Assembly: GCA_001003705.1 (NCBI GenBank)
Contig: LCPQ01000001.1
Location: 58,008 to 122,007, forward strand
Origin: Parcubacteria group bacterium GW2011_GWA2_48_9
GTDB lineage: Bacteria > Patescibacteriota > Patescibacteriia > UBA10025
Reading direction: 5' to 3'
Length of the DNA stretch: 64,000 bases
Of the stretch, positions 40,831 to 62,762 are shown one piece after another. Both the position numbers and the translations under genes were made by a program. Positions within the stretch are counted from its first letter, which is position 1, and the number at the start of each line of letters is the position of its first letter. Under the pieces are notes generated by a model. It was not told the origin of the DNA. It was given only the letters and a program-made list of their open reading frames with translations, and made no database searches.

Positions 40831-42147
40831 ATGCTCCAATCTGATTTCCCATACTACAATACCATTGACCAAATCTACCATACACGGTGGGTTACCGATA
40901 AGCTCGCTAGAATTGAGCGACTACGAGGTATCATTGCCGATCTATGGCCGGCAGGTCATCCGACGCGCTTTATTCATGTCGCTGGTACGAGTGGTAAGGG
41001 CTCTGTATGCAAATTTCTTGAAGCTGGATTTCGAACGATTGGTTCAGCTGGTTCACTTACTGGTCCACATCTTTTCGATTACTGCGAGCGCTTCAGTATT
41101 GGGACGAATGATGTGACACACGCGGATGTTACAGATGCGTGGGAAAACACTGTGCGTCCACTATCGGTAGCCATGGCACGAACTACAGATAAAGAAGGAC
41201 TGGGATTTGGAGAAGTTACTATGCTCATAGCGCTTGTCCTTTTTGAGAGGTACAAATTGCAATGGGCCGCAATCGAGGGATTTGTTGGGGGCAGATATGA
41301 CTACCCAATGGCACTCAATGTTGATGCAACTATTCTTACAAATGTAGGAAACGACCACGCCCATCTGCTAGGCCAAAATAAGTGGCAACGCACATTAGAT
41401 AAAGCTGGTATCTCACGAAAAGGTATCCCACTGATCCTGGGAACCAGCGACCTCGACGTTGTCTCGATAGTTGATTCGGTATGTTCTCACGTTGGTGCCG
41501 AGTTGCTCCCCACCCGGCCTCAAAATACGCAGTATTGCGATGACTACGTCCGCAATCATTCACAGGAAATGCCATCTGATGCCCTCCTCCATGCTACACA
41601 CCAGGTGGTGAATGCTGCTACTGCACTCACAGCATTACAACGGCTCATTCCCCATCCTGATGTGCAGAAAATTATTGGAACGATGGCATCACTTACCATG
41701 CCAGGACGTCTACAACAGATTGAGGAAGGTATTTATATCGATGTTGCACACAACCCCGATAAAATTCTTCGACTTGTCGATGAAGTCAAAAAACGATTTG
41801 TGAACCGAAAGAAGCTTTTTCTCGTTGGATTGTCAAAGAAGCGCTCAGGGAATGAAGTACTCACTCCCATTATGGATATAGCTGACACTGTTATAGTCTC
41901 ATTGCCATCCCACCAAGGTGTCGACCCAATGGAGGTTGGTAAGGAACTTGCGTCCTATAATAAAGGCACGAGGCTAGAAGTGATTCAGAATCCCCAAAAG
42001 GCTATCGCGAAATTGAGGCATCTCCGCAATCACGGCGATGCTATCATCATCACTGGTTCAACATATCTTATAGATGATGCCATCAATCCTGACAGGCTAC
42101 TTCAGCATATTGGCGCCTCTGCCGGATGGAGATCAACTACTGTATAA
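40831..42147 (+). CDS. folC: Folylpolyglutamate synthase / Mur-ligase-family protein
   Basis: P-loop …HVAGTSGKGSV… and Mur ligase middle and C-terminal domains. 438 aa. Confidence 0.75.
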   Translation: MLQSDFPYYNTIDQIYHTRWVTDKLARIERLRGIIADLWPAGHPTRFIHVAGTSGKGSVCKFLEAGFRTIGSAGSLTGPHLFDYCERFSIGTNDVTHADVTDAWENTVRPLSVAMARTTDKEGLGFGEVTMLIALVLFERYKLQWAAIEGFVGGRYDYPMALNVDATILTNVGNDHAHLLGQNKWQRTLDKAGISRKGIPLILGTSDLDVVSIVDSVCSHVGAELLPTRPQNTQYCDDYVRNHSQEMPSDALLHATHQVVNAATALTALQRLIPHPDVQKIIGTMASLTMPGRLQQIEEGIYIDVAHNPDKILRLVDEVKKRFVNRKKLFLVGLSKKRSGNEVLTPIMDIADTVIVSLPSHQGVDPMEVGKELASYNKGTRLEVIQNPQKAIAKLRHLRNHGDAIIITGSTYLIDDAINPDRLLQHIGASAGWRSTTV

Positions 42148-53946: not shown

Positions 53947-54738
53947 CTACTTTGCCAGCTCAGCATCAATAACCGAGGCAAACTGTTCGTACGGTACCGC
54001 TCCTGAGACGAGCGTCCCATTGACGAAGGTCGCGGGTGTTCCCTGTACGCCGTATTGGGTTCCTTGAGTTGTGTCGTCCTGTACTTTTGACTGGTATTTG
54101 CCTGAGTCGAGACAACCATCAAACTGGCTCTGGTTCAACCCGAGGCCCCCGGCAGCACTCTTAAAGTTTTCTATGCTTAACGTGCCGGCCGCATTCATCT
54201 CAAAAAGCTTATCATGCATCTCCCAAAACTTACCTTGCTCTGCCGCGCATTCAGAGGCCTCTGCAGCCTTCTGCGCCAAGGGATGAAGTGATGTCAAGGG
54301 AAAGTGCCGATAGATAAGCCGTACATCATCTCCATATGTGTCGAGAATCCGCTGCGTAGTTGGATTAACCTGTTCACAGAATGGGCACTGAAAATCTGAA
54401 TATTCCACTAATGTGACTTTCGCGTTTTCACCGCCGCGAATATAATCATCGTCGCGAATAGGAATGTCGACCACTGTTGGAGCAGCTGTGGGCGCAGCGG
54501 CAGTCGGGGCAGTATTTGTTGGGGCAACAGTGTTTGTAGTCGTCCCTGCAACTTTCCCGGTGTTTGAATTCTTAGAACCTACGCTGCCTCCCGTCCGAAG
54601 CATGGAGAAAGTCAGCATAAAACCTATGAAACTGATTGCGGCTATCCCTGAAACAAGTCCGAAGTAGAAGGTCATTTTCGATGAACCCTGGAATAAACCT
54701 TGTTCCGATTCTTGTGGCTGCGTACGTTCATGGTCCAT
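53947..54738 (-). CDS. DsbA-like thioredoxin-fold oxidoreductase with N-terminal TM anchor and a Thr/Ala-rich linker
   Basis: CxxC active site …DFQCPFCEQ… in a DsbA-type domain. It has its own promoter carrying a TACTAC-N5-GTAGTA operator. Confidence 0.8.
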   Translation of the reverse strand: MDHERTQPQESEQGLFQGSSKMTFYFGLVSGIAAISFIGFMLTFSMLRTGGSVGSKNSNTGKVAGTTTNTVAPTNTAPTAAAPTAAPTVVDIPIRDDDYIRGGENAKVTLVEYSDFQCPFCEQVNPTTQRILDTYGDDVRLIYRHFPLTSLHPLAQKAAEASECAAEQGKFWEMHDKLFEMNAAGTLSIENFKSAAGGLGLNQSQFDGCLDSGKYQSKVQDDTTQGTQYGVQGTPATFVNGTLVSGAVPYEQFASVIDAELAK

Positions 54739-54787: not shown

Positions 54788-54823
54788 TACTACACATTGT
54801 AGTAGAACTGTAGGATCAGTCAA
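54788..54823 (-). promoter_or_regulatory. Promoter of the DsbA-like gene with overlapping BlaI/CopY-type operator
   Basis: Minus strand reads TTGACT, a 16-nt spacer, then TACAAT. The perfect inverted repeat TACTAC-acatt-GTAGTA at 54788-54804 overlaps the -10. The core TACAnnnTGTA resembles BlaI/MecI/CopY boxes. Confidence 0.55.
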
Positions 54824-54845: not shown

Positions 54846-57053
54846 TTATTTCCATCTCTTAAGAAGAAGGGAGTTTGCGACCACGGATACACTTGAGAGA
54901 GCCATAGCCGCACCGGCAATCTCAGGACGGAGTTGCCATCCAAAAATAGGGTAGAAAATTCCGGCAGCAATGGGAATCCCGGCAATATTGTAGATGAGCG
55001 CCCAAAAAAGGTTCTGAACTATCTTTCGGAAGGTTCTTCGTGAAAGTGTGATGGCATGGACAACGTCGCGAAGATCGTTCTTGACCAGCACGATTTGCCC
55101 GGTCTCGAGGGCCACATCTGTCCCCGACCCAATGGCGATCCCAAGATCTGCTGTCGCAAGCGCCGGAGCGTCGTTGATGCCATCGCCGACGAAAGCAACT
55201 CTTTTTCCCCGTCCCTGCAGCTTCTTCACTTCATTTGCTTTGTCTTCCGGGAGGACTTCCGCGAGAATATAGCTGATGCCGATTTGTCCGGCTACCGCAT
55301 TGGCGGTGCGCTGGTTATCTCCTGTAATCATGGCAGTATGAATACCGAGCTTTTCAAGACTGCTGATCGCATCCGAAGCGTTGTCTTTCACCGTGTCGGC
55401 CACAGCAATCAATCCTGCCGCAGCATTTCCGATCCCGATGATCATGACGGTCTTGCCTTCATGCTCGAGACGTTCGAGGTCAGCATCAAGCTGCATAATA
55501 TCGATATGCTCTCGATCGAAGAGTCGCCGGTTTCCTAGCATCACCCTCTGGCCGTCAATGTTGCCGACTACCCCATGGCCCGGTACTGCAGTAAAGTACT
55601 CGACCTCAGATAGGGTAAGCGCATCCTGTGCGGCGCGTGTAACGATCGCTTCTGCCAAAGGATGTTCTGATCGCTTCTCGACTGATGCAGCATACATCAA
55701 TAGTGTGTGTTCATCTACCCCAGATGCCGTCACAATATTAGTCACGACTGGCTTGCCATTCGTCAATGTACCGGTCTTGTCGAACATAACAATATCGATC
55801 CTCCGCGCAGCTTCAAGCGCCTCGCCTCCTTTAATTAAAATACCCTTGGAGGCGCCTATGCCCGTGCCGGTGATGATTGCAGTGGGTGTAGCAAGGCCAA
55901 GGGCACAGGGGCAGGCGATAACCAAAACTGCGACAAATGCGAGCAAGCTTGGGACAAAAGGTTGGAGCGCAATAAAGTACCACGCAATAAACGTGATAAG
56001 TGCAATAGCAATGACGGCGGGAACAAAGTACGCCGAAACTCTGTCAGCAAACCGTTGAATGGGCGCTTTAGACGCTTGAGCATCTTCGACAAGTTTAATG
56101 ATGCCTGCAAGTAACGTGTCTTTACCAACTTTTGTGGCCTTAAAAATGAATGTTCCGTGTTTGTTGATCGTCCCGCCTATGACAACAGATTCAACGATCT
56201 TTTCGGTGGGGATGCTCTCACCTGTTACCATTGATTCATCAACTGATGAGGCTCCTTCTTCGACGACGCCGTCAACGGGGATTTTTGTACCAGGCTTGAC
56301 GCGAATTCGGTCACCGACGACAACATCGTTCAGGGAAATCTCAATCTCGCTGTTCCCACGAACCACGATAGCTGTCTTCGGGGCCAAGCCCATCAGCTTT
56401 TTGATCGCTTCTCCTGTTTTGCCCTTTGCCCGCGCTTCGAGCCATTTACCCAACAGAACAAACGCGATGAGAATACTGCCGATCTCAAAGTATACTTCTC
56501 CCGCCACAAGGCCGAGGACTACGATGATCGAATACACATACGCAGTTGATGTACCAATCGCAATGAGAGAATCCATGTTAGCCGTTCGGGCTTTCAGAGC
56601 GCCCCAGAAACCCCGATAAAATTGCCATCCCGCCCAAAACTGTATTGGCGTAGCAAAGAGAAACTGCAGCCATTCGCGATACGGAACGCTTTCAATAACT
56701 GGAAAAACTCGCATGCCCATGCTCAATACAAGGACAGGAAGTGAGAGCGCCACGCTTATGGCGAATTTACTTTTCAACTTTCGTATTTCATTCCTCCGGC
56801 TTTCTTCCTCACTTTGGCGAGATTCGTCGTTTTCCTTCAGCTCTTTCGCCCCATAGCCTACGGCTTCGACTCCTTTTACAAGGGCGCTGATGTTGGTAAT
56901 GGAAGAATCATACACCACATGCGCTCGTTCCGTACCGTAATTCACTGAGGTTTGCTGGACACCACTGACACGTTTCAACCCACGTTCAATTAGCTGAGCG
57001 CAGCTTGCGCAATGCATTCCAGATACTGACAATAGTACGTTCTGATCGGCCAT
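54846..57053 (-). CDS. copA: Copper-translocating P1B-type ATPase
   Basis: N-terminal HMA domain (…GMHCASCAQLIE…), TM CPC motif (…IACPCALGLATP…), DKTGTLT phosphorylation site and GDGINDAP hinge. Confidence 0.95.
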   Translation of the reverse strand: MADQNVLLSVSGMHCASCAQLIERGLKRVSGVQQTSVNYGTERAHVVYDSSITNISALVKGVEAVGYGAKELKENDESRQSEEESRRNEIRKLKSKFAISVALSLPVLVLSMGMRVFPVIESVPYREWLQFLFATPIQFWAGWQFYRGFWGALKARTANMDSLIAIGTSTAYVYSIIVVLGLVAGEVYFEIGSILIAFVLLGKWLEARAKGKTGEAIKKLMGLAPKTAIVVRGNSEIEISLNDVVVGDRIRVKPGTKIPVDGVVEEGASSVDESMVTGESIPTEKIVESVVIGGTINKHGTFIFKATKVGKDTLLAGIIKLVEDAQASKAPIQRFADRVSAYFVPAVIAIALITFIAWYFIALQPFVPSLLAFVAVLVIACPCALGLATPTAIITGTGIGASKGILIKGGEALEAARRIDIVMFDKTGTLTNGKPVVTNIVTASGVDEHTLLMYAASVEKRSEHPLAEAIVTRAAQDALTLSEVEYFTAVPGHGVVGNIDGQRVMLGNRRLFDREHIDIMQLDADLERLEHEGKTVMIIGIGNAAAGLIAVADTVKDNASDAISSLEKLGIHTAMITGDNQRTANAVAGQIGISYILAEVLPEDKANEVKKLQGRGKRVAFVGDGINDAPALATADLGIAIGSGTDVALETGQIVLVKNDLRDVVHAITLSRRTFRKIVQNLFWALIYNIAGIPIAAGIFYPIFGWQLRPEIAGAAMALSSVSVVANSLLLKRWK

Positions 57054-57077: not shown

Positions 57078-57449
57078 TTATTCGACCACAATCTTCCCCT
57101 GATACATCCCCATATCGCATGTAAAAGGGATTTCCCCTGTTTCGGTAGGAGTAAACTCAACATCAGTCATGCCAAATGCCTTGAGATCCTTCCGAATCTT
57201 CATCCCCTCAAAGGTAACATACCGCGAACAATCCGCATGTTCTTGGCGGTTAAAGTGAAGGCGTACGGGAATCCCCGCTTTTACCGTAATGATGTTTGGA
57301 TCGTATGCCCCTTTTACTAAGATGGTGATTTCTTGTACACCGCTATTCATTTCCGCTTTTTCCTGCTTCCTTTGGAACCGGAGCCAAAGAAAAAAAATTC
57401 CGAAAATACCCGCTGTAAGGACGATGCCGATAACTTGACGTGAATCCAT
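57078..57449 (-). CDS. Small membrane-anchored cupredoxin-like protein
   Basis: 123 aa with an N-terminal TM segment. The C-terminal domain ends …FTCDMGMYQGKIVVE, a Cupredoxin_1-like CxxGMxxGxI motif. It is a paralogue of the next gene. Confidence 0.55.
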   Translation of the reverse strand: MDSRQVIGIVLTAGIFGIFFLWLRFQRKQEKAEMNSGVQEITILVKGAYDPNIITVKAGIPVRLHFNRQEHADCSRYVTFEGMKIRKDLKAFGMTDVEFTPTETGEIPFTCDMGMYQGKIVVE

Positions 57450-57492
57450 GGCCGTCTTATGAAACTATAATCAACCTTCGCATGTTCAGGTG

Positions 57493-57930
57493 TTAAATGA
57501 CATTAATCGTACCCCGAAACATCCCCATAGAGCATTGAAAAACAATGGAACCCTTCTCCTGTGCAACGAATTCAACCGTATCTTCTCCTGTTGTTTGTAG
57601 ATTCTTAGTTATTCCAAGCTTTGGAATTGTGAACGACCGCGCGCATCCGTAGGTATTGTTTGTCACTAATTTCATTCGTACCCTCTGTCCTTGCTTAACA
57701 GTCACTTGGGAGGGAGAATATCCATTTGAAGCAACGTTGATGGTTACAGAGTCGGAAACGACGTCAACATCTTGATCTGTATCCCCCTGGTCTACGGTGG
57801 CATCTGCATTCAGGCCGCTCCCTAACCTCCACGCTATTCCGCCGCCGATGACGATGACCAGGCCGACAATAATCATTATATTAGTAAAAGACTTACTATC
57901 ATCCGACTGTTTGCTATTTTGTCGTTTCAT
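57493..57930 (-). CDS. Small membrane-anchored cupredoxin-like protein (paralogue)
   Basis: 145 aa with an N-terminal TM segment, ending …FQCSMGMFRGTINVI. It has the same architecture as 57078..57449. Confidence 0.55.
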   Translation of the reverse strand: MKRQNSKQSDDSKSFTNIMIIVGLVIVIGGGIAWRLGSGLNADATVDQGDTDQDVDVVSDSVTINVASNGYSPSQVTVKQGQRVRMKLVTNNTYGCARSFTIPKLGITKNLQTTGEDTVEFVAQEKGSIVFQCSMGMFRGTINVI

Positions 57931-57952: not shown

Positions 57953-58708
57953 TTACTTACTAAACCAGGATTCCGGCTGAAAATCATTGAGCGCACGGTT
58001 GATATACACATTTGTCAAATACAGTTGATTCGTTATCATGAGAACTCCAATCAGCATCAAGAGTGCTGCGCTGACCATCGTGACCATTCTATGGTGCTTT
58101 TTAATAAACTGAGTGGCTTCGATTATTCTGCTGTAAAAAAGGGTAAACGTGAGAAGGGCAACTGCAAGACCAAGCGAGTAGAGGCTGAAATACGCGATAC
58201 CGCTGCCAATATTCCCTGTCTGACTTACCAGCGCTACGACACCGAGGAGAAAGGGACCGATGCATGGAGTCCAGACAAAAGCGAACGTGGCACCAAAAAA
58301 CAGGTTTCCGATAAACGTGCGCTGGTGTGGCTTCCAGTGAATCCGAGCTTCGCCGTTCATCCAGCGGAGAAATGATAGCGGATAAACAAAATTGAGTCCA
58401 AGGAGAAATACTACAGCCCCAGCAACTACTGCTATGATCTCCCGTGCGCTACCAATCGCCTCCGCAGCAACACCGATAAGCGCACCCAATGGAATAAAGA
58501 TAAGAAAAAATCCGAGAACGAAACCAGTGGCATTTGAAAGAATTTGGCGGCGGAAAGTATGACTGTCATCGGTAGTTCGCAATTCCTCGGTACTCAACCC
58601 AGTAATGGTGGTGAGATACGCGGGGAGCAAAACGACGACGCAGGGAGAAATGATTGAAAGAACACCGTAGAAAAACGAAAAGAAAAATGGTATAGTGCTA
58701 ATATCCAT
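57953..58708 (-). CDS. ccdA: CcdA/DsbD-family thiol-disulfide transporter (membrane electron-transfer protein)
   Basis: 251 aa with 6+ TM segments and conserved Cys in TM1 (…LSIISPCVVVLLPAYL…) and TM4 (…WTPCIGPFL…). Confidence 0.8.
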   Translation of the reverse strand: MDISTIPFFFSFFYGVLSIISPCVVVLLPAYLTTITGLSTEELRTTDDSHTFRRQILSNATGFVLGFFLIFIPLGALIGVAAEAIGSAREIIAVVAGAVVFLLGLNFVYPLSFLRWMNGEARIHWKPHQRTFIGNLFFGATFAFVWTPCIGPFLLGVVALVSQTGNIGSGIAYFSLYSLGLAVALLTFTLFYSRIIEATQFIKKHHRMVTMVSAALLMLIGVLMITNQLYLTNVYINRALNDFQPESWFSK

Positions 58709-58711
58709 GCG

Positions 58712-58960
58712 CTAGGAAACTAGTTCACGTGCCTCATATCCTGTCTTTCTGATTTGGTCAAAAATCTTCTCTCTCGTAATCTTTCCGGGGTCGAAGACAA
58801 TCTCGCCAGTGTTGTGCTGTTCGTTGATTTTCACCACTACGCCAATATCCTCGAGGTCCATGGTTATGAGCCGGCTACAAGATGCACAATGCATACCTGA
58901 AATAGTAATGTTCATTGTCTCCATATCATCTATTGCAAAAACACCGATCTCGGTCCCCAA
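58712..58960 (-). CDS. copZ: Heavy-metal-associated copper chaperone (CopZ-like)
   Basis: 82 aa with GMHCASC metal-binding motif and an HMA ferredoxin-like fold. Confidence 0.8.
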   Translation of the reverse strand: MGTEIGVFAIDDMETMNITISGMHCASCSRLITMDLEDIGVVVKINEQHNTGEIVFDPGKITREKIFDQIRKTGYEARELVS

Positions 58961-59883
58961 ACCATAAGGAGTATCCCGGCAAGCACGACAGCAAAATTCA
59001 GTAAAGTATACGGCCAGAATCCATACGGGCGTACTTCCTGGCGCCCGTGTTTATGTTCCTTATATACCAGATAACTCATCCCAGCCAAAATCATCAGCGT
59101 CGCGACAAAAAAGATAGGCAGAAATATGGTGAGACGATCGGAGAACATCATCACCGCTGTCATTGCCCCCATAGTACCCCCCATCAAACCAGCCATCATA
59201 CCTTCCATGATACCCATAATTCCACAGCAGGCACCTACCCATCCGCCTACGCCCATACCTATGATCATGCCAAAAACCGATCCAACAAACATGCCATTAG
59301 TAGTTCCAATGACAATACCAAGGAGTAATCCGGAAATCATTCCGATAGTCATACCGATCATCATACCTGTCATACAAGACACGGCTCCGCGAAAAGCGCG
59401 CAAGTGCCTGATTGCCCCGCCGGTAGCCACCACGGCAATTATGAGATAACCGATATACTGACCGTAGTTTCCCCAGAATGATTCAACATTCCAGAAGAAA
59501 ACGAAGTAAGTAAAATATGCGAGAGCTGCGACAACCACAAGTGTCCCCAGAGTGGATTTAATCACATTCTTTTCAAATGTGTACGCGGCTGGATCTTTGA
59601 AAAAAGATTGTTTGACGCGTCGCACTCGCTCGGACAATGATTCCCCACTGTCCCGGTCTTGCACAGACGTCTCAGACGCACTATAACCGACATTGGCGAT
59701 AGCTTCACGTACCTTTGAGAAGGGTACAATTGCCGGGTCATAACGAAGCTCAACGCGCTCACTTGTATACCGAATATCCTCCACCTCAACACCTATCCGC
59801 CCGAGAGCTTTTGTAATAGTTTTCTCACATGCATCGCAATGCATCCCCTGTATCCAAATGTCTTTGACGATTGTTTCGGTCAT
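58930..59883 (-). CDS. HMA-domain protein fused to a Met/Gly-rich polytopic membrane domain
   Basis: N-terminal HMA domain (…IQGMHCDACEKTI…), then several TM helices packed with MxxxM/GxxxG patterns (…MIGMTIGMISGLLLGIVIG…FGMIIGMGVGGWVGACCGIMGIMEGMMAGLMGG…). Confidence 0.6.
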   Translation of the reverse strand: MTETIVKDIWIQGMHCDACEKTITKALGRIGVEVEDIRYTSERVELRYDPAIVPFSKVREAIANVGYSASETSVQDRDSGESLSERVRRVKQSFFKDPAAYTFEKNVIKSTLGTLVVVAALAYFTYFVFFWNVESFWGNYGQYIGYLIIAVVATGGAIRHLRAFRGAVSCMTGMMIGMTIGMISGLLLGIVIGTTNGMFVGSVFGMIIGMGVGGWVGACCGIMGIMEGMMAGLMGGTMGAMTAVMMFSDRLTIFLPIFFVATLMILAGMSYLVYKEHKHGRQEVRPYGFWPYTLLNFAVVLAGILLMVWGPRSVFLQ

Positions 59884-59894
59884 AGTTATTAAGT

Positions 59895-60938
59895 TTATTG
59901 AGCTTTTGACTGCACTTCCTCGCAGGTCGTCGCATGCCCCGAGGGGTCTGTTATGCATGTCTTATTTTCGGGCATATTTAAAAGAAGCTGCGGAATAATC
60001 CCTGGACATACGGTCGACTGGGACATAAGATGCGCCGCCGTACCATCGACCGGCATTTGTGGGGCAGCAGAGATGGAGTGGGAAAAAACTATTGAACCCA
60101 TAAAAAACAACAGAGCTACAAGTGGGATAATGACAGCGACCCGCGTATGTGGGTAAAACTGTCTATTAATAATTCGCTCAATACGGTCATTAATAGCGGA
60201 AAAAGCGGGGATGGTGGCTGGAATCATTGTTTCACGGACTTTCAACGCCTTTACGAGCGCCCTACCCAGAAAATGATCCGTGCCCTGTTGTCGAATAGCT
60301 GCTTCATCAGCAGAAATTTCCAATAACGTTTTAATATATTCAGCGAACTTCGCGATCCCAGGGATAAACCAGAATACCTTTGTAAAAAAATGTACAATGA
60401 GAAGTCGGCTAGTGTCCCGCTTTATGCAATGGTGTTCTTCATGCAGAAGAACTCCGAGAAGTTCGCCATCGTTGAGCATTTCTATCATACCCCTACTGAT
60501 ATAGATAGTCGGGTGCGAAAAACCGGCACTTACAACGTAAGAACGGGAATCATCAATTTCAAGGACTGGAAATCCTACCCGTTCAGTAATTTTCTGAAGT
60601 CTCATGCTCATGTTCTTACTAGTTTTAGAGCGGAGTGAACGAATATAATTTGCAGTCCGGATAAACGTCACAGCTAGTAAAATAACCGCCACGAAGAAAA
60701 ACACACTTACTGCACCCAACAGGGCAATATTGATTGAGCTCAATACGACGTCTTTGCCCGTCAATCCCGCTATAAGCTGGCTGCAGGCATGAACGAATTC
60801 AGCAAGTACAACACCAACAAACCCTGAAATATGAGGGATAAGGTTAAGTGCGAGCACGAGAGCGCCTAAGACAAGCCCAAGGCCGCTTAATGCAAAAAGA
60901 GAGAACTGCCGACCGCTTGTTTGATCAGATACGTTCAT
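59895..60938 (-). CDS. M56-family (BlaR1/MecR1-like) membrane zinc metalloprotease signal transducer lacking a PBP sensor domain
   Basis: N-terminal polytopic domain with HExxH (…LLHEEHHCIKRD…). The C-terminal roughly 100 aa is extracytoplasmic and His/Met/Cys-containing (…HLMSQSTVCPGIIP…KTCITDPSGHATTCEEV…), with no transpeptidase-like motifs. Confidence 0.8.
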   Translation of the reverse strand: MNVSDQTSGRQFSLFALSGLGLVLGALVLALNLIPHISGFVGVVLAEFVHACSQLIAGLTGKDVVLSSINIALLGAVSVFFFVAVILLAVTFIRTANYIRSLRSKTSKNMSMRLQKITERVGFPVLEIDDSRSYVVSAGFSHPTIYISRGMIEMLNDGELLGVLLHEEHHCIKRDTSRLLIVHFFTKVFWFIPGIAKFAEYIKTLLEISADEAAIRQQGTDHFLGRALVKALKVRETMIPATIPAFSAINDRIERIINRQFYPHTRVAVIIPLVALLFFMGSIVFSHSISAAPQMPVDGTAAHLMSQSTVCPGIIPQLLLNMPENKTCITDPSGHATTCEEVQSKAQ

Positions 60939-61317
60939 TGCTTTTCTCCCTAATTTTCTTTTCGAGAAGCTCGAGTTTTTTCGGGTCTACCTTATCAAGC
61001 GTCTTGACAAACTCAGCGATGGCCACATCACCACACTCGGATATAAGCTTCTTGATGATATCGCCGGAAGCACGAGAAAAAAAAGATTCGCGTTTTTGCG
61101 CCGCTGAGTACTCAAAAGCGCCAGTGTGATCCTTTCGATTCAAGAGTCGCTTCTCCGCGAGGCGGTACATAACCGTCATAACGGTGGTATATGCTATGTG
61201 TCGCTTCTTCCGAAGAATTTTCACAACATCGCGCACCGTAACGGTACCCCGCTCCCAGATAATTTCCATAATTTGTTTTTCAAGCTCTCCGAGTAGGTAG
61301 AATGAGTGTTTTGTCAT
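60925..61317 (-). CDS. BlaI/MecI/CopY-family winged-helix repressor (without C-terminal CxC metal cluster)
   Basis: 130 aa (…LGELEKQIMEIIWERGTVTVRDVV…AYTTVMTVMYRLAEKRLL…) is the penicillinase-repressor fold. The C-terminus is a coiled coil with no CxCxxxxCxC motif. Confidence 0.85.
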   Translation of the reverse strand: MTKHSFYLLGELEKQIMEIIWERGTVTVRDVVKILRKKRHIAYTTVMTVMYRLAEKRLLNRKDHTGAFEYSAAQKRESFFSRASGDIIKKLISECGDVAIAEFVKTLDKVDPKKLELLEKKIREKSNERI

Positions 61318-61336: not shown

Positions 61337-61373
61337 TACTACGAAATGTAGTATCTCTGAATAAAGGTGTCAA
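61337..61373 (-). promoter_or_regulatory. Promoter of the copY-like operon with overlapping BlaI/CopY-type operator
   Basis: Minus strand reads TTGACA, a 17-nt spacer, then TACATT. The inverted repeat TACTAC-gaaat-GTAGTA at 61337-61353 overlaps the -10. Arrangement and arms are the same as at 54788-54804. Confidence 0.55.
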
Positions 61374-61425: not shown

Positions 61426-61881
61426 TCAGGTCCCTACCGGTTCATGCTGAATACGTCGATATGCTGTGACGTTCGTGATCAAGATGCCAAGATAAAAAAG
61501 CAACCCATATACGCAAGCGGGTAAACCGGTAAAGGTAAGTTTGAGAATCCAAACCTCGTACACAATTAGAGTTGATGAAAAAAGTGTTCCAACGACACCG
61601 AGAATAATTAGCGCTTTGATCATGCTCTTCTTCGGTTTTCCCGCTAATGCTGCGGCTGACAGGAGAAATACCGTGAAGAACATTGCAAAACCGTATACAC
61701 AGGTGGGTAAACCGAAAATAAGTACCTTAGCTGGACCGCCGCACGAAACTAACCAATTCAAAGGACCTTGGTGACAACTAGGACCGATAAGATTCCAATA
61801 AGTTAAATACCCCGAGAGTAAACTCCCGGCAAATGCAAAAGTGAGGCTGACGATAGCTAGTTTACGATTACTTGTCATCAT
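61426..61881 (-). CDS. Small polytopic membrane protein with internally duplicated GLPxCVYG motifs and a Cys-rich loop
   Basis: 151 aa with 4 TM segments. Loop …IGPSCHQGPLNWLVSCGGP…. Two halves each contain GLP(T/A)CVYG(F/L) at a helix start. It lies downstream of arsR–YHS in the same orientation. Confidence 0.4.
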   Translation of the reverse strand: MMTSNRKLAIVSLTFAFAGSLLSGYLTYWNLIGPSCHQGPLNWLVSCGGPAKVLIFGLPTCVYGFAMFFTVFLLSAAALAGKPKKSMIKALIILGVVGTLFSSTLIVYEVWILKLTFTGLPACVYGLLFYLGILITNVTAYRRIQHEPVGT

Positions 61882-61910
61882 AGACTCATGTGGTTAACAA
61901 GAACTTACTA

Positions 61911-62387
61911 CTAAATATACCGGACAGCCCGTTTTTCAAATGCAGTTTTACAGCCAGAGGCGCAAAAGTAATATTCGCTCCGCTTATACCAAGAAGATAG
62001 AACAGCAGTCTCAGGAGAGAGTTTCATGCCGCATACAGGATCAATAACGCGCGGTATAGCAGCTTTTTGGCTTATTCGGCTCCATGGTTGAGACTTTTTC
62101 TGGTCAACGAGAATTCCGTGGATGGCATCAAAGGCTTTTGCCACATTATGATGTGCCAGGCAGTACGTCATTTCACGTCCCTCTCGCTTAGGAAGAACCA
62201 GGCGTTCTTGCCGCAACACCTGCAAATGCTGGCTGACGTTTGATTGCGCCATTCCGGTCATTCGCTGTATATCGGTTACCGTCAACGAATGGCTGCGCAA
62301 AAGCTGTATAATTTCCAGGCGTTTGGGGTTGGCAAGCGCTTGAAAAATGCCGCTGTCTTGTTTAAATGCGTCGTTATACATATTCAA
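61911..62387 (-). CDS. ArsR/SmtB-family transcriptional regulator fused to a C-terminal YHS/TRASH metal-binding domain
   Basis: HTH …LANPKRLEIIQLLRSHSLTVTDIQRMTGMAQSNVSQHLQVLR…. C-terminal …DPVCGMKL…YYFCASGCKTAF… is the YHS/TRASH Cys signature. Confidence 0.75.
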   Translation of the reverse strand: MNMYNDAFKQDSGIFQALANPKRLEIIQLLRSHSLTVTDIQRMTGMAQSNVSQHLQVLRQERLVLPKREGREMTYCLAHHNVAKAFDAIHGILVDQKKSQPWSRISQKAAIPRVIDPVCGMKLSPETAVLSSWYKRSEYYFCASGCKTAFEKRAVRYI

Positions 62388-62422: not shown

Positions 62423-62629
62423 CACGCGGTTATCCACAGCTACATCAACAACAAAAACCGTATACATACGTACGGACGTCAATAAGTTTATTTAATGTAC
62501 CTCTTCCTCCAGAACTCGGATTCGGTTCTGGGCGCCACGCACGCTCGCGGCTTCGAATCCAAGCTGCGTTACCAAAAAACCTTATCATCTTGCACAATGT
62601 TTGCTTGATTAACCTCGTCTATTCCCTTT

Positions 62630-62700
62630 CTCCGGGACTTGGATTCGAACCAAGATACCAGGCTTCAAAGGCCTGTGTCCTACCATTAGACGATCCCGGA
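62630..62700 (-). tRNA. tRNA-Gln (anticodon UUG)
   Basis: Folded by hand. Acceptor UCCGGGA/UCCCGGA with the U1-A72 pair typical of bacterial tRNA-Gln. D-arm GUCU-AAUGGUA-GGAC. Anticodon arm CAGGC-CUUUGAA-GCCUG. T-arm CUUGG-UUCGAAU-CCAAG. Discriminator G. No encoded CCA. Confidence 0.8.
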
Positions 62701-62762
62701 ATACACTAAAACAACTGGCCTATGCACGCACAGTATACGGATTCAGCTATACAGTGTAAAGA

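What the first reader, a model, noticed from the sequence alone, without database searches (positions are those of the whole stretch)
59895..61317. BlaR1-like M56 protease with a short His/Met/Cys ectodomain in place of a PBP sensor, paired with a CopY-like repressor that lacks the Cu-binding CxC cluster
The 347-aa M56 protein keeps the HExxH protease core (LLHEEHHCIKRD) in the membrane domain. Its C-terminal extracytoplasmic part is only about 100 aa and carries candidate metal ligands (…HLMSQSTVCPGIIP…CITDPSGHATTCEE…). It has none of the SxxK, SxN or KTG motifs of beta-lactam-sensing BlaR1. The partner repressor ends in a coiled coil with no CxCxxxxCxC motif, so it cannot sense Cu(I) the way Enterococcus CopY does. 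Together these suggest metal sensing outside the cell and derepression by proteolysis.
Basis: partly seen in the sequence, partly recalled or inferred. Interest (0 to 1): 0.6.

Follow-up and report, generated by a model that had tools for sequence, protein, structure and literature searches.

The report
Protease-controlled copper-efflux switch in Kerfeldbacteria
A repressor gene and a membrane protease gene sit at the head of a copper-export operon in an uncultured Candidatus Kerfeldbacteria genome, and the pair most likely switches the operon on by cutting the repressor when copper rises, as the PetR/PetP pair does in cyanobacteria.

Summary
At 59895-61317 (-) a 130-aa BlaI/CopY-family repressor (one Cys, no CxC) overlaps a 347-aa M56 gluzincin that has no penicillin-binding sensor. 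One correction: the tail after the last membrane helix is about 57 aa, not about 100.

The pair heads a conserved operon: HMA-membrane protein, HMA, CcdA, two CupA-like cupredoxins, and a Cu(I) P1B-1 ATPase. A palindrome, TACTAC-N5-GTAGTA, overlaps the -10 of this operon's promoter and of a downstream DsbA-like gene's promoter.

Homologues down to 40% identity keep the whole operon. Relatives near 23% identity, and pairs from Actinomycetota, Chloroflexota and Paenibacillus, also sit beside copper genes.

The closest characterised system is cyanobacterial PetR/PetP, where a sensor-less BlaR-type protease degrades a CxC-less repressor when copper is present. So derepression by proteolysis is well supported, though only by inference.

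The proposed His/Met/Cys ectodomain metal site is not supported:
- The His and Met residues are not conserved.
- The four outer-face Cys are conserved, but their counts are coupled in parity between loop and tail, which fits disulfides.
- They lack CxxC or CxC spacing.
- AlphaFold models the tail poorly.

Verdict: a new variant of a known kind, of moderate interest.

The parts
61337..61353 (.). Operator 1: perfect palindrome TACTAC-N5-GTAGTA between the -35 box and the repressor start codon
   Evidence: One search gives an exact match. It overlaps the -10 hexamer of the promoter-like site TTGACA-17-TACATT at 61373-61345 (10 of 12 matches). The same palindrome lies upstream of the repressor gene in L001, L003 and L027, with near-matches in L006, L007, L028, L029 and L030.
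60925..61317 (-). BlaI/MecI/CopY-family winged-helix repressor, 130 aa, without a CxC metal site
   Evidence: Pfam PF03965 at 95.1 bits. TIGR02698 CopY_TcrY at 54 bits, below the cut-off of 121.95. The best solved relative is 2g9w at E = 8e-10, followed by BlaI and MecI. The only Cys (C95) is replaced by F, Y or W in relatives. The conserved segment VAIAE|F103 aligns with the BlaI N101|F102 cleavage site.
59895..60938 (-). Sensor-less M56 membrane gluzincin, 347 aa. It has H166-E-E-H-H170 and E207-x-x-x-D211, an outer loop carrying C52, a last membrane helix at about 266-288, and a tail of about 57 aa carrying C311, C328 and C339
58930..59883 (-). HMA (CxxC) domain fused to a Met/Cys/Gly-rich polytopic membrane domain, 317 aa from the likely start. 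The open frame extends to 59958
   Evidence: Only the HMA domain is recognised by Pfam. The protein is highly conserved and always follows the protease gene in L001, L002, L003 and L006. The 317-aa form is the one in public records.
58712..58960 (-). Small CopZ-like HMA protein. The ORF is listed from a TTG start, and homologues are called at 67-74 aa
   Evidence: Pfam HMA match, and NCBIfam CopZ-type hits below cut-off. Conserved in synteny.
57953..58708 (-). CcdA/DsbD-type thiol-disulfide membrane transporter
   Evidence: Pfam DsbD_TM at 54 bits. Conserved in all subfamily loci. It also sits next to BlaI-M56-CopA in L008 and L017, and near them in L018.
57493..57930 (-). Membrane-anchored cupredoxin-like protein with a CSMGM motif
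   Evidence: Pfam Cupredoxin_1 at 51.8 bits. Its CxMxM motif equals the CupA Cu(I) ligands C111/M113/M115 (PMC5646241).
57078..57449 (-). Second membrane-anchored CupA-like cupredoxin, with a CDMGM motif
   Evidence: Pfam Cupredoxin_1 at 65 bits. Motif read and compared with CupA.
54846..57053 (-). CopA, a P1B-1 Cu(I)-exporting ATPase with an N-terminal HMA domain
   Evidence: Pfam E1-E2_ATPase, Hydrolase and HMA matches. The sequence shows CPC, YN(x4)P and MALSS. Assigning these motifs to the P1B-1 class rests on my own knowledge.
54788..54804 (.). Operator 2: TACTAC-N5-GTAGTA in front of the DsbA-like gene
   Evidence: One search gives an exact match. It overlaps the -10 of TTGACT-16-TACAAT at 54823-54796 (10 of 12 matches). 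An equivalent site lies before the DsbA-like genes of L001, L002, L003 and L006.
53947..54738 (-). Membrane-anchored DsbA/thioredoxin-like protein (CPFC motif), a probable second target of the repressor
   Evidence: Homologues in L001, L002 and L003 carry Thioredoxin_4/DSBA hits. Operator 2 lies directly upstream.

Best explanation
This is a two-gene switch of the BlaI/BlaR1 type. It heads and autoregulates a copper-defence regulon in a Candidatus Kerfeldbacteria (Patescibacteria) genome.

**Shown by sequence**
- The repressor gene and the M56 gluzincin gene overlap.
- They are followed by an HMA-membrane protein, an HMA protein, CcdA, two CupA-like cupredoxins and a Cu(I) P1B-1 ATPase.
- A perfect palindrome, TACTAC-N5-GTAGTA, overlaps the -10 hexamer of the operon promoter and of the promoter of the next gene, a DsbA-like oxidoreductase.

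**Inferred mechanism**
- Without copper stress, the repressor dimer occupies both palindromes and blocks RNA polymerase.
- Under copper stress, the membrane protease becomes active. Its active site (HEEHH...ExxxD) faces the cytoplasm.
- The protease cuts the repressor in its dimerisation region, probably at E102|F103, the position that aligns with N101|F102 of BlaI.
- DNA binding is lost. Cu(I) efflux genes (CopA and CupA-like chaperones) and envelope thiol-redox genes (CcdA and DsbA-like, comparable to the Scs system) are then expressed.
- This is the logic demonstrated for PetR/PetP in Synechocystis, here wired to copper export rather than to the plastocyanin/cytochrome c6 switch.

**The ectodomain**
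- The outer face of the protease consists of a loop of about 30 aa (residues 34-65, with C52) and a tail of about 57 aa (with C311, C328 and C339).
- These four Cys are best read as two disulfides that staple the loop to the tail. The result would be a mini-ectodomain occupying the place of the EL1-sensor contact in BlaR1.
- Whether this element perceives copper, for example through thiol chemistry, or is only structural is unresolved.
For: **Domain assignments**
- Searches give the family matches.
- The HEXXH and EXXXD motifs and an invariant Arg252 are seen across 59 relatives. They match the BlaR1 catalytic motifs H201EXXH and E242XXXD described in PMC9834060.

**Conserved operon**
- The operon is identical in L001 (65% identity in the protease), L002 (91%), L003/L005 (43%) and L006 (40%).
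- Sister-clade members at about 23% identity: L024 has blaI-M56-86aa-CupA-like-copA. L029 has blaI-M56-rhodanese-[HMA-DsbD_TM-cupredoxin]-[HMA-DsbA]-copA.

**Association with copper genes in other phyla**
- blaI-M56-ccdA-copA occurs in Chloroflexota (L008) and in Actinomycetota (L017).
- In a second Actinomycetota locus (L018), ccdA lies on the opposite strand between the pair and copA.
- blaI-M56-copC-copD occurs on a Paenibacillus lautus plasmid.

**Operators**
- locate the palindromes and the promoter-like sites.
- PetR operators in petE promoters have the same build, TACGAC-N5-GTCATA (Dataset S2 of 10.1101/2020.07.31.226407).

**Precedent**
- PetR lacks the CopY Cu site.
- PetP is a four-helix M48/M56 protease without a sensor domain.

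**Repressor**
- It has no CxC.
- C95 is F, Y or W in relatives.
- The A-x-F segment is conserved.

**Outer-face Cys**
-.
Against: - No experiment exists for this system. Every mechanistic step (DNA binding, cleavage, copper dependence) is inferred from homologues.
- No copper-binding site was identified in either protein. PetP's proposed Met ligands in the TM2-TM3 loop have no counterpart here, since residues 34-70 contain no Met.
- The C52/C311 pair is conserved in relatives that are not next to copper genes, for example P0007 with YceI and L027/L004 with Cys-rich secreted proteins. It is therefore a general feature of the family rather than a copper-specific site.
- An ArsR-YHS/TRASH regulator lies just upstream (61911-62387). 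No clear terminator separates it from the operon, so a second, cytoplasmic metal sensor may contribute.
Confidence: 0.6

Rival explanations
1. The outer-face Cys network (C52 with C311, C328 and C339) is itself the sensor. Cu(I) binding to reduced thiols, or copper-catalysed oxidation of them, changes the loop-tail contact and activates the protease.
For: - The four Cys are the only conserved candidate ligands. They lie on the extracytoplasmic side.
- Sister-clade proteins have CGC in the loop where this subfamily has H-x-C in 4 of 5 members.
- The regulon encodes CcdA and a DsbA-like protein, so the redox state of envelope thiols is actively managed.
- In BlaR1 the equivalent loop, EL1, carries the signal.
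Against: - The parity coupling of loop and tail Cys counts, the long Cys spacings, and the near absence of CxxC/CxC or Met/His motifs in 130 tails fit structural disulfides.
- The same Cys pair occurs in family members with no copper genes nearby.
- The tail has low pLDDT.
Confidence: 0.25
2. The pair senses envelope thiol/disulfide or general envelope stress rather than copper itself. Copper genes are only one of several outputs in the family.
For: - Family members with the same operator head operons of Cys-rich secreted proteins (L027, L004, L028) or YceI (L030) instead of copA.
- In the window the second operator controls a DsbA-like gene, and the operon contains CcdA.
Against: - In this subfamily every locus carries the full CupA/CopA set.
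- Copper genes recur next to such pairs in four other lineages.
- The only characterised relative responds specifically to copper.
Confidence: 0.12
3. The repressor senses Cu(I) directly, like CopY, through C95 with His residues at the dimer interface. The protease only clears the released protein or is unrelated.
For: - C95 and the 'ECGD' context are conserved in the four subfamily repressors.
- The family is named after CopY, and public records label the protein 'CopY family'.
Against: - There is no CxC or CxCx4CxC, and the TIGR02698 score is below cut-off.
- C95 is F, Y or W in the sister clade, including the copA-linked L024 and L029. That indicates a buried core position.
- H64 is not conserved.
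- The protease gene overlaps the repressor gene in every locus.
Confidence: 0.05
4. The adjacent ArsR-YHS/TRASH protein is the real copper sensor of the operon, acting through read-through from its own promoter. The BlaI/M56 pair integrates some other signal.
For: - An ArsR HTH is fused to a YHS metal-binding domain at 61911-62387. It has a strong promoter-like site at 62422-62395.
- No canonical terminator lies before the blaI promoter.
- An ArsR-YHS homologue also follows copA in L018.
Against: - No ArsR-YHS homologue was found next to the operon in L001, L003 or L006, while BlaI-M56 is always present.
- The operon has its own promoter with an operator on the -10.
Confidence: 0.08

Closest known systems
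PetR/PetP (Slr0240/Slr0241) of Synechocystis sp. PCC 6803 and other cyanobacteria (Garcia-Canas et al., bioRxiv 10.1101/2020.07.31.226407; PNAS 2021 commentary PMC7896320)
   Same: - A BlaI/CopY-family regulator without the CopY CxC site.
- The adjacent, overlapping gene encodes an M48/M56 membrane protease of about 300-350 aa that lacks the penicillin-binding sensor.
- The system is linked to copper.
- The operator is built from hexamer half-sites spaced by 5 nt: TACGAC-N5-GTCATA in petE promoters, TACTAC-N5-GTAGTA here.
   Different: - The output here is a Cu(I)-efflux and thiol-redox operon, not petE/petJ.
- The host is a non-photosynthetic CPR bacterium.
- PetP's conserved Met pair in the TM2-TM3 loop is absent.
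- This protein has a conserved outer-face Cys quartet and a 57-aa tail.
- The operator half-site differs at one base.
- Sequence orthology with PetP was not tested.
BlaI/BlaR1 and MecI/MecR1 of Staphylococcus aureus (PMC9834060)
   Same: - The M56 gluzincin core has HEXXH...EXXXD and a cytoplasm-facing active site.
- The repressor fold is shared, and a Phe sits at the position of the BlaI P1' residue.
- The expected mechanism is derepression by cleavage.
   Different: - There is no penicillin-binding sensor domain and no SxxK or KTG motif.
- NCBIfam blaR1_generic scores 26.5 bits against a cut-off of 400.
- The regulated genes are for copper, not beta-lactam resistance.
- Operator spacing is N5 rather than TACA-N2-TGTA.
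CopY-CupA-CopA operon of Streptococcus pneumoniae, and CopY of Enterococcus hirae (PMC5646241, PMC7253601, PMC11672702)
   Same: - A Penicillinase_R-family repressor heads an operon with a membrane-anchored cupredoxin chaperone carrying CxMxM and a CopA P1B-1 ATPase.
   Different: - CopY senses Cu(I) and Zn(II) itself through C-terminal CxC motifs, binds the cop box TACANNTGTA, and has no partner protease gene.
- Here there is no CxC and no cop box, TIGR02698 scores below cut-off, and an M56 protease gene is inserted.
Rv1846c/Rv1845c of Mycobacterium tuberculosis. 2g9w is the best solved match to the repressor; its identity as Rv1846c BlaI is from my own knowledge
   Same: - It is the closest solved repressor structure (E = 8e-10).
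- From memory, it is paired with a BlaR-like protease that lacks the sensor domain.
   Different: - As far as I know it is not linked to copper export.
- Its operator and regulon were not compared here.
Scs (suppressor of copper sensitivity) system of Salmonella, Proteus and Caulobacter (own knowledge)
   Same: - A DsbD/CcdA-type membrane reductase together with DsbA/DsbC-like thioredoxin-fold proteins, deployed against copper stress in the envelope. The CcdA and DsbA-like genes of this regulon resemble that arrangement.
   Different: - Scs is controlled by other regulators and is not fused into a copA operon.
- Homology beyond the Pfam domains was not tested.

Membership tests
Peptidase M56 (BlaR1/MecR1-type membrane gluzincin) | Match to Pfam PF05569 above the gathering score | tested here: met
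   58.6 bits against a cut-off of 31, covering residues 75-254.
Peptidase M56 (BlaR1/MecR1-type membrane gluzincin) | Gluzincin catalytic motifs HEXXH and EXXXD (H201EXXH / E242XXXD in BlaR1) | tested here: met
   H166-E-E-H-H170 and E207-I-S-A-D211. H, E, H, E and D are invariant in 59 aligned relatives. The motif definition comes from PMC9834060.
Peptidase M56 (BlaR1/MecR1-type membrane gluzincin) | Fold of the BlaR1 transmembrane and protease domain | tested here: met
Peptidase M56 (BlaR1/MecR1-type membrane gluzincin) | Protease domain on the cytoplasmic side, between membrane helices, with the C-terminus outside | tested here: met
   K+R density is 6 of 23 residues after helix 66-92 and 2 of 59 in the tail. 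Whether there are three or four membrane helices before the protease domain is unresolved. Relatives have a basic N-terminus and an amphipathic 34-65 segment, which favours three.
BlaR1/MecR1 beta-lactam sensor-transducers | C-terminal penicillin-binding sensor domain with SxxK, SxN and KTG | tested here: not met
   The tail is only about 57 aa. No SxxK or K[ST]G is present. NCBIfam blaR1_generic scores 26.5 bits against a cut-off of 400.
BlaI/MecI/CopY repressors (Penicillinase_R) | Match to Pfam PF03965, comprising a winged-helix domain and a helical dimerisation domain | tested here: met
   95.1 bits against a cut-off of 22.6, covering residues 9-123. PDB matches are 2g9w, 1sd4 and 1okr.
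BlaI/MecI/CopY repressors (Penicillinase_R) | Cleavage site with a near-invariant P1' Phe in the dimerisation domain (N101|F102 in BlaI) | tested here: inconclusive
   AIAE102|F103 aligns with LVLN|F of BlaI, and A-x-F is conserved in 14 relatives. Cleavage itself cannot be tested here.
CopY/TcrY copper-sensing repressors (TIGR02698) | C-terminal CxCx4CxC or CxC Cu(I)/Zn(II) site | tested here: not met
   There is one Cys only (C95) and no CxC. The feature definition comes from PMC11672702 and PMC7253601.
CopY/TcrY copper-sensing repressors (TIGR02698) | Score at or above the equivalog cut-off | tested here: not met
   54 bits against 121.95.
CopY/TcrY copper-sensing repressors (TIGR02698) | cop box operator TACANNTGTA upstream of the operon | tested here: not met
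   The window holds only two matches, at 41337 and 49057, which is no more than chance. None lies in the promoter.
PetR/PetP-type copper-dependent proteolytic switch | CxC-less BlaI-family regulator with an adjacent, overlapping gene for a sensor-less M48/M56 membrane protease | tested here: met
   compared with the description of PetRP.
PetR/PetP-type copper-dependent proteolytic switch | Operator with half-sites spaced by 5 nt (core GAC-N5-GTC) | tested here: inconclusive
   The build and spacing are the same, TAC[T]AC-N5-GT[A]GTA, against TACGAC-N5-GTCATA. The core here reads TAC-N5-GTA rather than GAC-N5-GTC.
PetR/PetP-type copper-dependent proteolytic switch | Conserved Met pair (M53/M58) in the loop between TM2 and TM3, proposed as Cu ligands | tested here: not met
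   There is no Met in residues 34-70 of the window protein. The feature is described.
PetR/PetP-type copper-dependent proteolytic switch | Copper-dependent degradation of the regulator by the protease | not testable with these tools
   This needs in vivo or in vitro proteolysis assays.
PetR/PetP-type copper-dependent proteolytic switch | Sequence orthology with cyanobacterial PetP and PetR | not tested
   No PetP or PetR sequence could be obtained. The paper's supplements hold only accession numbers and promoter sequences.

The most novel reading that the evidence does not exclude
Sensor-less BlaI/M56 pairs may form a widespread, cross-phylum class of copper-responsive proteolytic switches. 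The lineages seen are Patescibacteria, Actinomycetota, Chloroflexota, Paenibacillus and Cyanobacteria.

The signal would be read on the outer face by a thiol network: a Cys in the first outer loop paired with Cys in the short C-terminal tail. Copper binding to these thiols, or copper-catalysed oxidation of them, would activate the cytoplasmic protease site.

This would give a concrete mechanism for how PetP-type proteases perceive copper, a question left open in 2021. It would also tie copper sensing directly to envelope disulfide stress.
Probability: 0.22. Interest if true: 0.7.

Novelty: new variant of a known kind. Interest (0 to 1): 0.48.

Why it matters
**What is known.** Copper control by regulated proteolysis of a BlaI-family regulator has one characterised example, PetR/PetP. 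It governs the cyanobacterial plastocyanin/cytochrome c6 switch. How that protease senses copper is unknown.

**What this locus adds.**
- The same two-protein logic heads classical Cu(I)-efflux operons in CPR bacteria.
- The association with copper genes recurs in at least four other lineages.
- This suggests a general alternative to the CopY, CsoR and CueR sensors, one that text searches of the held literature did not find described.

**What it makes testable.**
- The comparative data narrow the candidate sensing elements. His and Met can be discarded.
- A loop-tail Cys network is conserved across 160 relatives and can be tested by mutagenesis and thiol trapping.

**Interest for CPR biology.** These bacteria have very small genomes and few regulators. 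The locus also links copper export with envelope thiol-redox maintenance in a single regulon.

Tried and rejected
**Ideas tested and rejected**
- His303, His335 and Met305 as ligands. They vary even at 91% identity and are gapped in most relatives.
- Classical Cu(I) motifs in the tails. CxxC occurs in 2 of 130, CxC in 2 of 130, and MxM or MxxM in at most 11 of 130.
- Direct copper sensing by repressor C95. It is F, Y or W in relatives, including copA-linked ones.
- A cop box operator. TACANNTGTA is absent from the promoter.
- C171, which directly follows HExxH (HEEHHC), as a regulatory ligand. It is invariant in the subfamily but present in only 22 of 160 relatives and absent from the copA-linked sister clade.

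**Technical dead ends**
- The word-indexed protein search returned only 2 homologues. The exhaustive HMMER search was needed.
- Alignments A3 and A4 were too diverse for locus scanning.
- The metagenome scan returned only 3 sister-clade loci.
- P0006 has no contig on record.
- The afdb50 library was unavailable.
- The PetP sequence could not be retrieved from the paper's supplements.
- Model coordinates are not exposed, so Cys-Cys distances could not be measured.
- The parity test treats 50%-identity cluster representatives as independent, so it overstates significance.
Full report
**1. What is in the sequence**

- On the minus strand, ORF 60925..61317 encodes a 130-aa protein and ORF 59895..60938 a 347-aa protein. 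The two overlap by 14 nt.
- The first matches Pfam Penicillinase_R at 95.1 bits (cut-off 22.6). The second matches Peptidase_M56 at 58.6 bits (cut-off 31).
- The protease has HEEHH at residues 166-170 within LLHEEHHCIKRD, and E207-ISA-D211. It has no SxxK and no K[ST]G. The repressor has a single Cys (C95) and no CxC.
- NCBIfam confirms that neither protein is a full member of the named functional families. blaR1_generic scores 26.5 bits against 400, and CopY_TcrY scores 54 bits against 121.95.
Hydropathy, charge distribution and the model place the last membrane helix at about 266-288. The extracytoplasmic tail is 55-59 aa, not about 100 aa.
- Positions in alignments A1-A3 and in the model are one lower than the full-protein numbers used here, because the initial Met was left out of those references.
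- The exact proteins are public: KKW02433.1 and KKW02434.1 from Candidatus Kerfeldbacteria / Parcubacteria GW2011_GWA2_48_9. They carry only family-level names.

**2. Surroundings**

Downstream on the same strand lie, in order:
- an HMA domain fused to a Met/Cys/Gly-rich membrane domain (58930-59883);
- a small HMA protein;
- a CcdA/DsbD_TM protein;
- two membrane-anchored Cupredoxin_1 proteins;
- a P-type ATPase with HMA, CPC, YN(x4)P and MALSS motifs.

Both cupredoxins carry CxMxM (CSMGM and CDMGM). This is the arrangement of the Cu(I) ligands C111/M113/M115 of pneumococcal CupA (PMC5646241). The gene set is therefore a copY-cupA-copA type Cu(I)-efflux operon, with a protease gene and thiol-redox genes added.

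Upstream lie a VKOR homologue and an ArsR-YHS fusion regulator.

**3. Operator**

- Between a TTGACA box and the repressor start codon lies the perfect palindrome TACTAC-ATTTC-GTAGTA (61337-61353).
- It covers the -10 hexamer of a promoter-like site scoring 10 of 12 (TTGACA-17-TACATT).
- A second perfect copy (54788-54804) covers the -10 of TTGACT-16-TACAAT, directly upstream of a DsbA-like gene (53947-54738) that follows copA.
- The same palindrome stands upstream of the repressor genes, or of the first downstream target genes, in related loci. These are L001, L002, L003, L004, L006, L027 and L028, with degenerate forms in L007, L029 and L030.
- No cop box (TACANNTGTA) is present in the promoter.
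- The petE promoters used to define the PetR site read TACGAC-N5-GTCATA. That is the same hexamer-N5-hexamer build, differing at one base per half-site.

**4. Relatives and their contexts**

- The word-indexed search found only two homologues, at 91% and 65% identity.
- An exhaustive HMMER search of 1.84 billion representatives found 5,237 hits at E <= 1e-3 but only four at E <= 1e-30. The immediate subfamily is small. All of the best 150 hits are short (202-375 aa), sensor-less M56 proteins.
- Every subfamily locus with flanking DNA has the same gene order: blaI, M56, HMA-TM, HMA, ccdA, two cupredoxins, copA, dsbA. These loci are L001, L002, L003 (the same place as L005) and L006, reaching down to 40% identity in the protease.
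- A larger sister clade at about 23% identity has CGC in the loop and four Cys in the tail. Its contexts are mixed:
  - L024 has blaI-M56-86aa-CupA-like-copA.
  - L029 has blaI-M56-rhodanese-[HMA-HMA-DsbD_TM-cupredoxin fusion]-[HMA-DsbA fusion]-copA.
  - L027, L028 and L004 are followed by Cys-rich secreted proteins.
  - L007 has no obvious copper gene nearby.
- More distant pairs also sit beside copper genes. blaI-M56-ccdA-copA occurs in a Chloroflexota MAG (L008) and an Actinomycetota MAG (L017).
- In a second Actinomycetota MAG (L018), ccdA lies on the opposite strand between the pair and copA.
- blaI-M56-copC-copD occurs on Paenibacillus lautus plasmid pAZOPL1.
- A tail-less Paenibacillus-type relative is followed by YceI instead.
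- CopA is present in only one to a few copies per genome. Finding it within 10 kb in 3 of 14 unrelated loci is therefore well above expectation. This estimate is my own inference.

**5. Structure and topology**

- An AlphaFold model built on 59 aligned relatives has mean pLDDT 83 and pTM 0.78. The membrane and protease core is above 90. The loop around residues 41-60 scores 58-69, and the tail from about 291 onwards scores 44-59.
- The segment after helix 66-92 is strongly basic (6 K+R in 23 residues). The tail is acidic (2 K+R and 5 D+E in 59 residues). In 58 longer relatives the N-terminus is basic (3.0 K+R in 13.7 residues), and the 34-65 segment is amphipathic with charged residues.
- The most consistent topology is N-terminus in, loop 34-65 out, protease domain in, tail out. 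This puts C52 on the same side as the tail.
- In BlaR1 the corresponding extracellular loop, EL1, contacts the sensor domain and carries the signal (PMC9834060).

**6. The proposed metal ligands**

- His303 is H, R, H, H, H, R across the six subfamily sequences. His335 is H, Y, H, Q, I, gap. Met305 is M, I, M, M, A, S. Across 160 relatives these columns are mostly gaps.
- The Cys residues are conserved: C52 in 149 of 160, C311 in 137 of 160, C328 in 87 of 160 and C339 in 65 of 160.
- Counting Cys in the loop and in the tail gives these classes (loop, tail): (2,4) 50; (1,1) 33; (1,3) 18; (1,0) 15; (2,2) 12; (2,3) 9. The sum is even in 118 sequences and odd in 40.
- With one loop Cys, the tail count is odd in 51 sequences and even in 7. 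With two loop Cys, it is even in 62 and odd in 11. Fisher p = 1e-17. The sequences are related, so this p value overstates independence.
- Spacing between successive tail Cys has a median of 9 residues. CxxC and CxC each occur in 2 of 130 tails, and Met or His pair motifs in at most 11.
- This pattern is what disulfide pairing between loop and tail predicts. It is not what Cu(I) thiolate sites look like.
- The window protein has 1 + 3 = 4 such Cys, which would make two disulfides. Genes for oxidative folding (VKOR, DsbA-like) and for reductant export (CcdA) are in the same neighbourhood.
- The C52/C311 pair also occurs in relatives with no copper genes nearby. It is therefore a family feature rather than a copper-specific site.

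**7. The repressor**

- Its best solved relative is 2g9w (E = 8e-10), followed by S. aureus BlaI and MecI.
- The segment VAIAE-F103-VKT aligns with LVLN-F102-AKN of BlaI. The A-x-F motif is conserved in all 14 repressors compared.
- BlaR1 cleaves BlaI at N101|F102, and the P1' Phe is nearly invariant (PMC9834060).
- C95 is conserved only in the subfamily and is F, Y or W elsewhere, including the copA-linked L024 and L029. H64 varies.
- Direct copper sensing by the repressor is therefore unlikely.

**8. What is already known**

- PetR/PetP of Synechocystis is a BlaI/CopY-family regulator without the CopY copper site. It is paired with an overlapping gene for a four-helix M48/M56 protease lacking the beta-lactam sensor.
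- PetR is degraded after copper addition. [quoted passage not shown]
- The authors could only suggest two loop Met residues as ligands. [quoted passage not shown]
- CopY repressors, by contrast, sense Cu(I) through CxC motifs and are described only in Lactococcus, Streptococcus and Enterococcus.
- Text searches of the held literature found no description of a BlaI/M56 pair controlling a copA operon, nor of such systems in Patescibacteria. Absence from this library does not prove absence from the literature.

**9. Conclusion**

- The locus is best explained as a PetRP-like proteolytic switch wired to copper efflux and envelope thiol-redox maintenance. My confidence is about 0.6, and all mechanistic steps are inferred.
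What remains is a conserved Cys network that looks like disulfides but could still be a thiol-based sensor (probability about 0.2-0.25).
- The finding is a new variant of a known kind and of moderate interest. Its value lies in extending the PetRP paradigm to copper detoxification in several phyla. It also supplies a sharply defined, testable candidate for the sensing element.

Noticed in passing
window 58930-59883 (-): An HMA (CxxC) domain is fused to a polytopic membrane domain that is extremely rich in Met, Gly and Cys (SCMTGMMIGMTIGM, GACCGIMGIMEGMMAGLMGG). No Pfam or NCBIfam model covers the membrane part. It is 61-96% identical in four related loci and always follows the protease gene. 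It could be an undescribed Cu(I) permease or a co-sensor.
   Followed up: partly
window 61426-62387 (-): An ArsR-type HTH is fused to a C-terminal YHS/TRASH metal-binding domain (61911-62387). It has its own strong promoter-like site (62422-62395) and is followed by a VKOR homologue (61426-61881). This may be a second, cytoplasmic metal sensor. It is not conserved next to the operon in L001, L003 or L006, but an ArsR-YHS homologue follows copA in L018.
   Followed up: partly
window 57078-57930 (-): Two tandem membrane-anchored cupredoxin-like proteins carry the CupA-type CxMxM motif. The charge flanking their anchors differs: basic residues come after the anchor in one and before it in the other. 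They may therefore face opposite sides of the membrane.
   Followed up: no
L027 9097-10240; L004 1789-2935; L028 9042: In sister-clade loci the blaI-M56 pair is followed by another TACTAC-N5-GTAGTA site and then by Cys-rich secreted proteins. In L027 these end in ...MVGGC, and several proteins carrying an S-C-x-C-T motif lie further downstream. This is a different, uncharacterised regulon for the same type of switch.
   Followed up: partly
L029 9824-12593: The functions encoded as separate genes in the window appear here as fusion proteins before copA. One is a 580-aa HMA-HMA-DsbD_TM-cupredoxin protein with CWMGM and a C-terminal CGCGGGSGSCGG. The other is a 329-aa HMA-DsbA protein. The fusions argue that these components work together.
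   Followed up: no
L032 6226-9381 (Paenibacillus lautus plasmid pAZOPL1, NZ_CP032413.1): An annotated BlaI/MecI/CopY regulator and an M56 metallopeptidase (286 aa, HESFHC, ending ...MECI) lie directly upstream of CopC and CopD genes. A heavy-metal P-type ATPase is nearby. This is a cultivable organism in which the copper-protease hypothesis could be tested.
   Followed up: partly
L008, L017, L018 (Chloroflexota and Actinomycetota MAGs): Distant blaI-M56 pairs sit next to ccdA and copA. Their proteases lack the soluble tail. They keep a Q-S-C-x-P-like Cys inside an extra hydrophobic C-terminal segment, resembling SQSTVCP of the window protein.
   Followed up: partly
window 62629-62701 (-): tRNA-Gln (anticodon TTG) lies between the copper region and the FtsX/FtsE genes.
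   Followed up: no
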